Source of the DNA: a virus
Taxonomy: Duplodnaviria; Heunggongvirae; Uroviricota; Caudoviricetes
Strand: one strand, 5' to 3'
Virus record (IMG/VR): IMGVR_UViG_2700989234_000006
DNA: 22,418 nt
The position numbers are program-made. Below, piece after piece: positions 21,001-22,418 of the stretch. Every line of letters begins with the position of its first letter. The first letter of the stretch is position 1.

Positions 21001-22418
21001 GAATCATGATTGTACTTAACCATAAGATTTGAGCGTAAAAATTAATGCGCAGCACGTCGTATGCAAGAACGTGCTGCGGCTGGCTGGCGAACTTTCGATA
21101 GTGCGAGTATTGAATGATTTTCAGCCGTTGCCGATTTTACTATGTTTTCAGTAGAACACTTAGACAAAACTGAGGCACACAAATCTTTGCACTGGATTGC
21201 AAGGCTTTGTGCTTCTCTGGAGTGCGACATGTTTGATAACAAAAAATTAGCGCAAGAAGACAAAAATCACCTTGCGCTAATGCTCTGTCTCAGGTCACTA
21301 ATACTATCTAAGTAGTTGATTCATAGTGACTGGATATGTTGTGTTTTGTAGCATCATGTAGTCTATTTTTTAGACTAAATATATTGTAACACATTGATAT
21401 TAATGGTTTTTAATGTTTCACGTTCAGCTTTTTTATACTAAGTTGGCATTATAAAAAAGCATCGCTTATCAATTTGTTGCAACGAACAGGTCATTATCAG
21501 TCAAAATAAAATCATTATTTGATTTCAATTTTGTCCCACTCCCTGCCTCTGTCATCACGATACTGTGATGCCATGGTGTCCGACTTGTGCCCGAGAAGAT
21601 GTTGAGCAAACTTATCGCTTATCTGCTTCTCATAGAGTCTTGCAGACAAACTGCGCAACTCGTGAAAGGTAGGTGGATCCCCTTCGAAGGAAAGACCTGA
21701 TGCTTTTCGTGCGCGCATAAAATACCTTGATACTGTGCCGGATGAAAGCGGTTCACGACGAGTAGATGCAATTATGGTTTCTCCGCCAAGAATCTCTTTG
21801 CATTTATCAAGTGTTTCCTTCATTGATATCCCGAGAGCATCAACATGCAATGTTGTAGGGATGGCAATTTTTACGCCTGTTTTGCTTTGCTCGACATAAA
21901 GATATCCATCTACGATATCAGACCACTTCATTTCGCATAAATCACCAACTCGTTGCCCGGTAACAACAGCCAGTTCCATTGCAAGTCTGAGCCAACATGG
22001 TGATGATTCTGCTGTTTGATAAATTTTCAGGTATTCGTCAGCCGTAAGTCTTGATCTCCTTACCTCTGATTTTGCTGCGCGAGTGGCAGCGACCGGTTTT
22101 GTTGTTATATGGCCTTCAGCTATTGCCTCTCGGAATGCATCGCTCAGTGTTGATCTGATTAACTTGGCTGATGCCGCCTTGCCCTCGTCTATGTATCCAT
22201 TGAGCATTGCCGCAATTTCTTTTGTGGTGATGTCTTCAAGTGGAGCATCAGGCAGCCCCCTCCTTATTGCTTTAATTTTGCTCATGTAATTTATGAGTGT
22301 CTTCTGCTTGATGAGGTGTACTGGCAATAGCGGACACTACCATTTGTTCTTTTTTTAAGCAGCCATCTGATGATATTTTTCCCTGAAGGCTGCCGGGGAG
22401 ATATTCCCCAGACGAGAG

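What the first reader, a model, noticed from the sequence alone, without database searches (positions are those of the whole stretch)
22298..22418. Integrase is truncated at its 5' end by what looks like a second IS3-family element
Lambda-like int homology runs from the stop at 21515 to about 22312 and then breaks abruptly. The adjoining sequence begins TGAGGTGTACTGGCAATAGCGGACAC, and the minus strand encodes a transposase-like C-terminus (...LGNISPAAFREKYHQMAA). The retained int portion keeps the catalytic domain including the YRDD tyrosine region but lacks the N-terminal arm-binding domain (about 90 residues by comparison with lambda). Unless the 5' part survives beyond the IS and is repaired by recombination, the phage cannot integrate or excise through Int.
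Basis: partly seen in the sequence, partly recalled or inferred. Interest (0 to 1): 0.55.

Follow-up and report, generated by a model that had tools for sequence, protein, structure and literature searches.

The report
IS600-cut integrase relic beside hybrid attP
The lambda-type integrase gene at the end of this contig really is cut off by the insertion sequence IS600, but it looks like a dead leftover of an older Shigella prophage beside which a second lambda-like phage has integrated, so this is ordinary prophage decay and stacking.

Summary
Homology to lambda-type int runs from the stop at 21515 to 22312. The last 107 bases (22312-22418) are 100% identical to the right end of IS600 (IS3 family). 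The retained ORF is Int residues 92-356. It keeps R212, K235, H308, R311, H333 and Y342. It lacks the arm-binding domain and the first 27 residues or so of the core-binding domain.

The window is a whole 22,418-bp draft contig (CXGR01000064.1, GCA_001260275.1), so nothing lies to its right in the source.

The segment from the att core through P', int' and the IS600 end matches 992/992 bases of a degraded prophage remnant in Shigella sonnei chromosomes (ybhC-attL-int'-IS600-truncated tail fibre-tfa-ipaH-attR-ybhB). Left of the 15-bp core, the window carries a phage P arm that is 99.9% identical to E. coli prophages. The remnant's own P arm is only 90% identical to it. This makes an intact hybrid attP.

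The best reading is a second lambda-att prophage integrated in tandem at the remnant's attL. Its own int would lie on another contig. That tandem structure is inferred, not seen. The finding is ordinary.

The parts
21515..22312 (-). int': the 3' 265 codons plus stop of a lambda-type tyrosine integrase (residues 92-356 of 356). The first in-frame ATG is at 22285, which gives the 256-aa product annotated in public genomes.
   Evidence: The catalytic R212, K235, H308, R311, H333 and Y342 are present. The arm-binding domain is absent. There are two private substitutions, N163K and A191T.
22312..22418 (-). Right end of IS600 (IS3 family). The terminal inverted repeat is 22312-22337 (TGAGGTGTACTGGCAATAGCGGACAC). 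The last 20 codons plus stop of transposase orfB lie at 22355-22417. The contig ends 107 nt into the element. The T at 22312 is shared with int, so the boundary is ambiguous by one base.
   Evidence: The full 1264-bp copy was read in L002:8711-9974.
21427..21441 (.). 15-bp lambda att common core, GCTTTTTTATACTAA. Homology to the Shigella sonnei remnant starts at 21427. Homology to E. coli prophages ends at 21441-21445.
21270..21426 (.). P arm of attP (approximate left limit). It is contiguous with the phage's moron region. It is 99.9% identical to E. coli prophage attR P arms, and 90% identical to the P arm of the Shigella sonnei remnant.
21442..21514 (.). P' arm between the core and the int' stop. 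It is identical to the P' arm of the Shigella sonnei remnant's attL, including the GCATCGC variant.

Best explanation
The right end of the contig carries a dead integrase fragment. An IS600 element abuts codon 92 of a lambda-type int. This removed the arm-binding domain and the start of the core-binding domain, so the fragment cannot carry out arm-dependent integration or excision.

The int'-IS600 junction was inherited. It is the same junction found in the degraded, ipaH-carrying prophage remnant at att-lambda (between ybhC and ybhB) in Shigella sonnei chromosomes. There, IS600 joins int codon 92 directly to a truncated tail-fibre gene, with no target duplication, so IS600-associated rearrangement deleted most of that old prophage.

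In this strain a second, E. coli-type lambda-like phage is present (the head, tail and moron genes at window 1-21426). It used the same att core and recombined with the remnant's attL. The inferred result is ybhC-B.O.P'(new)-[new prophage]-P(new).O.P'(old)-int'(old)-IS600-(remnant)-attR-ybhB. The window holds the right half of the new prophage, the internal hybrid attP and the start of the remnant.

Shown: the truncation, the IS identity, the intact attP, and the switch of ancestry at the core.

Inferred: the tandem structure as a whole, and that the new phage's own int lies next to ybhC on another contig.
For: 1. Truncation and IS identity.
2. The exact 256-aa int' protein occurs in more than 1,100 collection blocks. 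The 24 contigs read (the longest-contig blocks; 10 distinct places shown) have bioA-ybhB-ipaH-tfa-stf'-IS600-int'-ybhC. One of them, CP010829, is Shigella sonnei FORC_011.
3. Window 21427-22418 matches these loci at 992/992 bases (one locus 99.9%). The best intact int among 5,426 complete E. coli genomes is 99.7% identical. The int of the most similar complete prophage found in the E. coli genome search (Ec-U9-1, 98.1%) is 98.5% identical, with 13 mismatches in 886.
4. Window 19718-21445 is 99.9% identical to E. coli prophages that end at attR next to ybhB. The remnant's stf and tfa show no nucleotide similarity to the window's, and its P arm is only 90% identical.
5. The attP is collinear with free-phage attP sites in HK106, HK97 and lambda, across the core.
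6. An independent assembly (IMG/VR UViG 2693429591_000014) has the same hybrid P-O-P' junction, with a different J protein and no IS629.
7. IS600 in the remnant has unequal flanks, TAA and TCA. The IS629/IS1203 in the window has a clean GCT duplication.
8. Precedent: E. coli ET220 carries two lambda-type prophages in tandem between ybhC and ybhB, with an internal attP followed by int. Tandem prophages and IS-inactivated prophage integrases are described in PMC8112680.
Against: - The source is a short-read draft, and the window is the entire contig. The ybhC-attL-int(new) junction and the DNA beyond IS600 were never seen in this strain.
- The organism of GCA_001260275.1 could not be verified. 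It is only inferred from the identity to Shigella sonnei loci and from the accession series.
- If the new phage's own P'-int were nearly identical to int', the assembler should have broken the contig at the core. It did not. So the second copy must be divergent, or resolved by read pairs, or absent.
- No complete genome with exactly this tandem arrangement was found. The 24 contigs read (the longest-contig blocks) all had the plain remnant.
Confidence: 0.68

Rival explanations
1. int' is the own integrase gene of the phage in the window, knocked out by an IS600 insertion. The prophage is then locked in place, or is held in the chromosome through IS600 homology rather than through att.
For: int' lies where lambda int lies relative to attP and the b-region. 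IS insertion into prophage integrases is common. The contig runs unbroken through P'-int', which would fit a single copy of this sequence in the genome.
Against: A prophage integrated by Int would show attL or attR, not attP. The junction, the two private substitutions and the P' arm are identical to the Shigella sonnei remnant, which sits in an attL context. The phage to the left is an E. coli-type phage whose relatives carry a different int allele (98.5%). Ancestry switches exactly at the 15-bp core. An independent IS600 hit at the same nucleotide in an identical allele is unlikely.
Confidence: 0.15
2. The attP junction comes from excised, circular or replicating phage DNA in the sequenced culture. 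For example, the outer attL(old) and attR(new) could recombine when the new phage sits at the remnant's attR. The assembler then followed that path, so the chromosome itself has no internal attP.
For: Spontaneous induction produces attP reads. The second assembly with the junction (L026) ends 134 nt past the start of the core, as a branch point in the assembly graph would.
Against: Circles are normally a minority of reads, and the contig passes the core without a break. Such a circle would still require a second phage next to the remnant, so int' would still be the relic. Chromosomal internal attP sites do exist (ET220).
Confidence: 0.12
3. Assembly chimera. The contig wrongly joins a prophage right arm to the remnant's int'.
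For: The source is a draft short-read assembly with scaffolding.
Against: The shared sequence at the joint is only the 15-bp core, too short to mislead a de Bruijn assembler. The same junction occurs in an independent assembly.
Confidence: 0.03

Closest known systems
IS600 (IS3 family), a high-copy insertion sequence of Shigella
   Same: The 107 terminal bases are identical to annotated IS600 copies. The end is TG... with an imperfect inverted repeat, and the orfB C-terminus is identical. The full copy at the homologous locus is 1264 bp, with an HTH_Tnp_1 orfA and an rve orfB.
   Different: Only one end is visible in the window. At the homologous Shigella sonnei loci the copy has no 3-bp target duplication (TAA versus TCA). 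It therefore marks a deletion or recombination joint rather than a simple insertion.
Degraded ipaH-carrying lambdoid prophage remnant at att-lambda in Shigella sonnei (for example FORC_011, CP010829)
   Same: The P' arm, int' (residues 92-356, N163K, A191T) and the IS600 junction are identical, 992/992 bases.
   Different: In those chromosomes int' is followed by the bacterial B arm and ybhC (attL). In the window it is followed by a phage P arm and a full set of tail and moron genes (attP).
Tandem lambda-att prophages (polylysogens), for example E. coli ET220. General description in Nakamura et al. 2021, PMC8112680
   Same: The order is late genes, morons, internal attP, then int, at the ybhC/ybhB site. 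Tandem integration of phages sharing one att site, and IS-inactivated prophage integrases, are both described.
   Different: In ET220 both units are complete copies of one phage. In the window the downstream unit is inferred to be an old remnant of a different phage, so the internal attP is a hybrid of two phages' arms. The outer junctions are unseen.
Lambda Int C-terminal fragments (C65 = residues 65-356; C170 = catalytic domain). This comparison rests on my own knowledge of the Int literature and was not checked with the tools.
   Same: The fragment lacks the arm-binding domain but keeps the full catalytic domain and the active-site residues.
   Different: The fragment starts at residue 92 (or at Met101 if translated from the first ATG), inside the core-binding domain. 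It is therefore shorter than C65. Nothing shows that it is expressed: the promoter scan found only one weak site, on the minus strand and downstream of the ORF start, fewer than the shuffled-sequence mean.

Membership tests
IS600 / IS3 family insertion sequence | Terminal inverted repeat starting 5'-TG, and near-identity to the reference element | tested here: met
   Window 22312-22418 is 107/107 identical to copies annotated as IS600. The IRR TGAGGTGTACTGGCAATAGCGGACAC pairs with the IRL TGAGGTAGCCTGAGTTTAACGGACAC in the full copy.
IS600 / IS3 family insertion sequence | orfA (HTH) and orfB (DDE/rve) joined by a programmed -1 frameshift | tested here: inconclusive
   Only the last 20 codons of orfB lie in the window. 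The full copy at the homologous locus has an HTH_Tnp_1 orfA and an rve orfB, and PGAP annotates a programmed frameshift.
IS600 / IS3 family insertion sequence | 3-bp target-site duplication flanking a simple insertion | not testable with these tools
   The other end is outside the contig. At homologous Shigella sonnei loci the flanks are TAA and TCA, so the feature is not met there.
Lambda-type (heterobivalent) tyrosine integrase, functional member | Catalytic residues R212, K235, H308, R311, H333 and Y342 | tested here: met
   All six are invariant in the alignment with intact Ints. Phage_integrase scores E = 1.3e-40.
Lambda-type (heterobivalent) tyrosine integrase, functional member | N-terminal arm-type DNA-binding domain (PF09003) | tested here: not met
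   Absent from int'. Present at 7e-33 in the intact 356-aa protein. Residues 1-91 are missing.
Lambda-type (heterobivalent) tyrosine integrase, functional member | Complete core-binding domain (residues about 65-169) | tested here: not met
   The fragment starts at residue 92. The Phage_int_M match begins at profile position 33 instead of 17.
Lambda attP | 15-bp core GCTTTTTTATACTAA flanked by P and P' arms collinear with free phage genomes | tested here: met
   The core is at 21427-21441. One-piece matches cross the core in HK106 (94.5%) and in lambda 27471-27767 (89.9%).
Tandem prophage array at att-lambda | Internal attP between the late/moron end of one prophage and the int end of the next | tested here: met
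   The same layout is present in E. coli ET220.
Tandem prophage array at att-lambda | Outer attL (ybhC side) and attR (ybhB side) in the same chromosome, with a second int at attL | not testable with these tools
   The source is a draft and the window is the whole contig. Other contigs of the assembly could not be retrieved.

The most novel reading that the evidence does not exclude
The dead remnant's attL acts as a recurrent landing pad in Shigella sonnei, whose attB is permanently occupied. Different lambda-att phages stack onto it by attP x attL exchange: two assemblies carry the same hybrid junction with different J proteins. The 256-aa Int fragment lacks the arm-binding domain and lies co-oriented 70 nt downstream of the IS600 transposase stop. 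If it were expressed, it could modulate recombination at these sites, for example as a core-binding competitor.
Probability: 0.07. Interest if true: 0.4.

Novelty: already known. Interest (0 to 1): 0.15.

Why it matters
The main value is for annotation. A truncated int next to a seemingly complete set of phage genes should not be read as 'this prophage is locked in' without checking the att junctions. Here the intact hybrid attP shows that the neighbouring phage integrated by site-specific recombination, so its own integrase must lie elsewhere. The case also illustrates two known processes: IS600 erodes prophages in Shigella, and an occupied att-lambda site can still accept new phages. Neither point is new in kind.

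Tried and rejected
Attempts to extend the sequence to the right or to find the same arrangement in a complete genome:
- The exact-protein look-up for ORF 18789-19679 turned out to be the IS629/IS1203 transposase and gave only scattered IS copies.
- The look-ups for the GTG-start 168-aa DUF892 ORF and the ATT-start 167-aa ORF found nothing, probably because the first residue differs from the annotated M.
- The 145-aa DUF892 ORF hit only a 1.2-kb Logan contig without the IS.
- The 166-aa DUF892 protein and the 1023-aa tail fibre returned only E. coli single lysogens, because the tool reads the longest contigs first.
- The J protein and the 33-aa IS-junction ORF returned only the source contig.

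Pattern scans:
- The hybrid attP pattern found one IMG/VR contig and nothing in genome contigs or metagenome contigs.
- The int'/IS600 junction pattern found nothing in viral, genome or metagenome contigs.
The part of the list shown (about 80 of at least 120 hits) did not include the genome of L026.

Other:
- A literature search for the source accession found nothing.
- Rejected idea: that FDAARGOS_943 (H41) shares the junction. There, int is intact and IS600 sits in an antirepressor gene 0.5 kb away.
- The promoter scan gave no support for expression of int'.

Full report
**Observation**

The minus-strand ORF 21515-22327 encodes a lambda-type integrase fragment. Megablast of 21400-22418 against 50,697 phage records matched HK106, HK97, 434, lambda and others at 98-98.9% identity. 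The match covers query positions 1-913 only, so int homology stops at window 22312.

The sequence from 22312 reads TGAGGTGTACTGGCAATAGCGGACAC. The minus strand of 22355-22417 reads ...SRLGNISPAAFREKYHQMAA*.

The last 107 bases are 100% identical to elements that PGAP annotates as 'IS3-like element IS600 family transposase' (E = 7.5e-51). They also hit 89 Stx-phage records.

Alignment with intact 356-aa Ints shows that residues 92-356 are retained. R212, K235, H308, R311, H333 and Y342 are all present. There are two private substitutions, N163K and A191T.

Pfam finds Phage_integrase (1.3e-40) and a clipped central domain, but no Arm-DNA-bind_1. That domain scores 7e-33 in the intact protein.

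**Source**

The J protein of the window has one exact match in the assembly collection. It is contig CXGR01000064.1 of GCA_001260275.1, 22,418 bp, range 1-22418. The window is thus a whole draft contig.

It starts inside the major capsid gene and ends 107 nt into IS600, which is a typical repeat break. No rightward extension exists in the source. The organism name could not be retrieved. Neighbouring CX** accessions are Shigella sonnei isolates of the Holt et al. 2012 collection, according to PMC5447701.

**What int' is related to**

The exact 256-aa product (from the ATG at 22285) is on record in more than 1,100 blocks. The 24 contigs read, from the longest-contig blocks, gave 10 distinct places, all with the same layout: bioC-bioF-bioB-bioA-ybhB-ipaH-tfa-truncated tail fibre-IS600-int'-ybhC-ybhJ. 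One of them, CP010829, is Shigella sonnei FORC_011. This is a heavily deleted lambdoid prophage at att-lambda.

The full IS600 there is 1264 bp (L002:8711-9974). Its flanks are unequal, TAA and TCA, so it is a rearrangement joint and not a simple insertion.

Window 21427-22418 matches these loci at 992/992 bases, from the first base of the att core through P', int' and the IS600 end. By contrast, the best intact int among 5,426 complete E. coli genomes is 99.7% identical. The int of the most similar complete prophage found in the E. coli genome search (Ec-U9-1, 98.1% across the window) is 98.5% identical, with 13 mismatches in 886.

**What lies on the other side of the core**

In the Shigella sonnei loci the core is followed by the bacterial B arm and ybhC (attL). 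In the window it is followed by a phage P arm. The region 21039-21470 aligns in one piece across the core with the attP of HK106 (94.5%). The region 21174-21470 aligns with lambda 27471-27767 (89.9%). The window therefore contains an intact attP.

The DNA to the left includes the tail genes, lom, stf, tfa, a yciG/yciF/yciE/Mn-catalase moron cluster and the P arm. It is 99.6-99.9% identical to E. coli prophages that end at attR next to ybhB, and those matches stop at 21441-21445.

The remnant's own tail-fibre and tfa genes show no nucleotide similarity to the window's. Its P arm is only 90% identical. Ancestry therefore switches exactly within the 15-bp core. This is the signature of Int-mediated site-specific exchange between two different elements.

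**Interpretation**

The most economical structure is ybhC-B.O.P'(new)-new prophage-P(new).O.P'(old)-int'(old)-IS600-remnant-attR-ybhB. In this structure a second lambda-att phage integrated at the attL of the resident remnant. The window is the right half of the new prophage plus the start of the remnant.

On this reading int' is an inherited pseudogene. The new phage's own int would lie at the far end, on another contig.

Supporting points:
- A second, independent assembly (IMG/VR UViG 2693429591_000014) carries the same hybrid junction. Its J protein differs (90% aa identity) and it has no IS629.
- A complete E. coli chromosome (ET220) carries two lambda-type prophages in tandem between ybhC and ybhB, with an internal attP followed by int and xis.
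- Tandem integration of phages sharing an att site, and IS-inactivated prophage integrases, are described in PMC8112680.

**Function of the fragment**

From established knowledge of lambda Int (my own knowledge, not tool-tested), the arm-binding domain (residues 1-64) is needed for integrative and excisive recombination. The core-binding domain (65-169) is needed for core-site binding. A fragment starting at residue 92 or 101 should be inactive in both reactions.

No evidence for expression was found. The promoter scan gave one weak site, on the minus strand and downstream of the ORF start, which is fewer than the shuffled-sequence mean.

**Limits**

- The outer junctions and the DNA beyond IS600 in this strain were never seen.
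- No complete genome with this exact arrangement was recovered, because the look-up tool reads only the longest contigs.
- The contig runs unbroken through P'-int'. Any second int copy in the genome must therefore differ enough to be resolved, or be absent.

**Rivals**

- int' is the phage's own gene, hit by IS600, with the prophage held otherwise (0.15).
- The attP comes from excised circles (0.12).
- Chimeric assembly (0.03).

Under the circle rival, too, int' remains a relic.

**Verdict**

The functional inference about 'the phage' is not supported.

The feature is an ordinary product of IS-driven prophage decay in Shigella, combined with tandem prophage integration. Both phenomena are already known.

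Noticed in passing
window 18412-19721: A complete 1310-bp IS629/IS1203 (IS3 family) with ends TGAACCGCCCCGG...CCGGGGCGGTTCA and a clean 3-bp target duplication GCT (18409-18411 and 19722-19724). It splits a yciE-like DUF892 gene. The uninterrupted target is seen in E. coli relatives (L027:15120-15135). The IS-junction ORF is found only in this assembly, so the insertion looks recent.
   Followed up: yes
window 17055-20581 (minus strand): A phage-borne stress-gene cluster lies between tfa and attP: a KGG-repeat protein (yciG-like, 60 aa), two DUF892 ferritin-like proteins (yciF- and yciE-like) and a manganese catalase (katN-like, 296 aa). It resembles the chromosomal yciGFE-katN operon and is shared with E. 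coli att-lambda prophages.
   Followed up: partly
window 1-22418 (whole): The window is a complete draft contig (CXGR01000064.1). It begins inside the major capsid gene (ORF 10-774 is the C-terminal 254 aa of a 341-aa protein) and ends 107 nt into IS600. Both ends are probably assembly breaks at repeats.
   Followed up: yes
L002:8640-10020 and L002-L011 generally: In Shigella sonnei chromosomes one IS600 copy joins int codon 92 to a truncated tail-fibre gene, with unequal flanks (TAA and TCA). This implies loss of most of a lambdoid prophage. What remains is tfa, an ipaH effector gene and attR next to ybhB. IS1 copies vary between strains in the adjacent ybhJ region.
   Followed up: partly
L026 (IMGVR_UViG_2693429591_000014), positions 13036-13395: A second assembly has the same hybrid P-O-P' junction, 100% identical over 360 nt. 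Its J protein is only 90% identical and it has no IS629. The contig stops 134 nt after the start of the core, as if P'-int were repeated in that genome.
   Followed up: partly
L152-L154 (E. coli ET220, NZ_CP100981.1, about 3,130,600-3,223,700): A natural tandem double lysogen of a lambda-like phage, about 93 kb, lies between ybhB and ybhC with an internal attP. Many genes are annotated as frameshifted, possibly because of sequencing errors.
   Followed up: partly
window 21515-22312: int' carries two amino-acid changes (N163K, A191T) not seen in the two intact Ints it was aligned with. Both coding differences from the closest intact allele are non-synonymous. This fits relaxed selection on a pseudogene, but the sample is tiny.
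   Followed up: no
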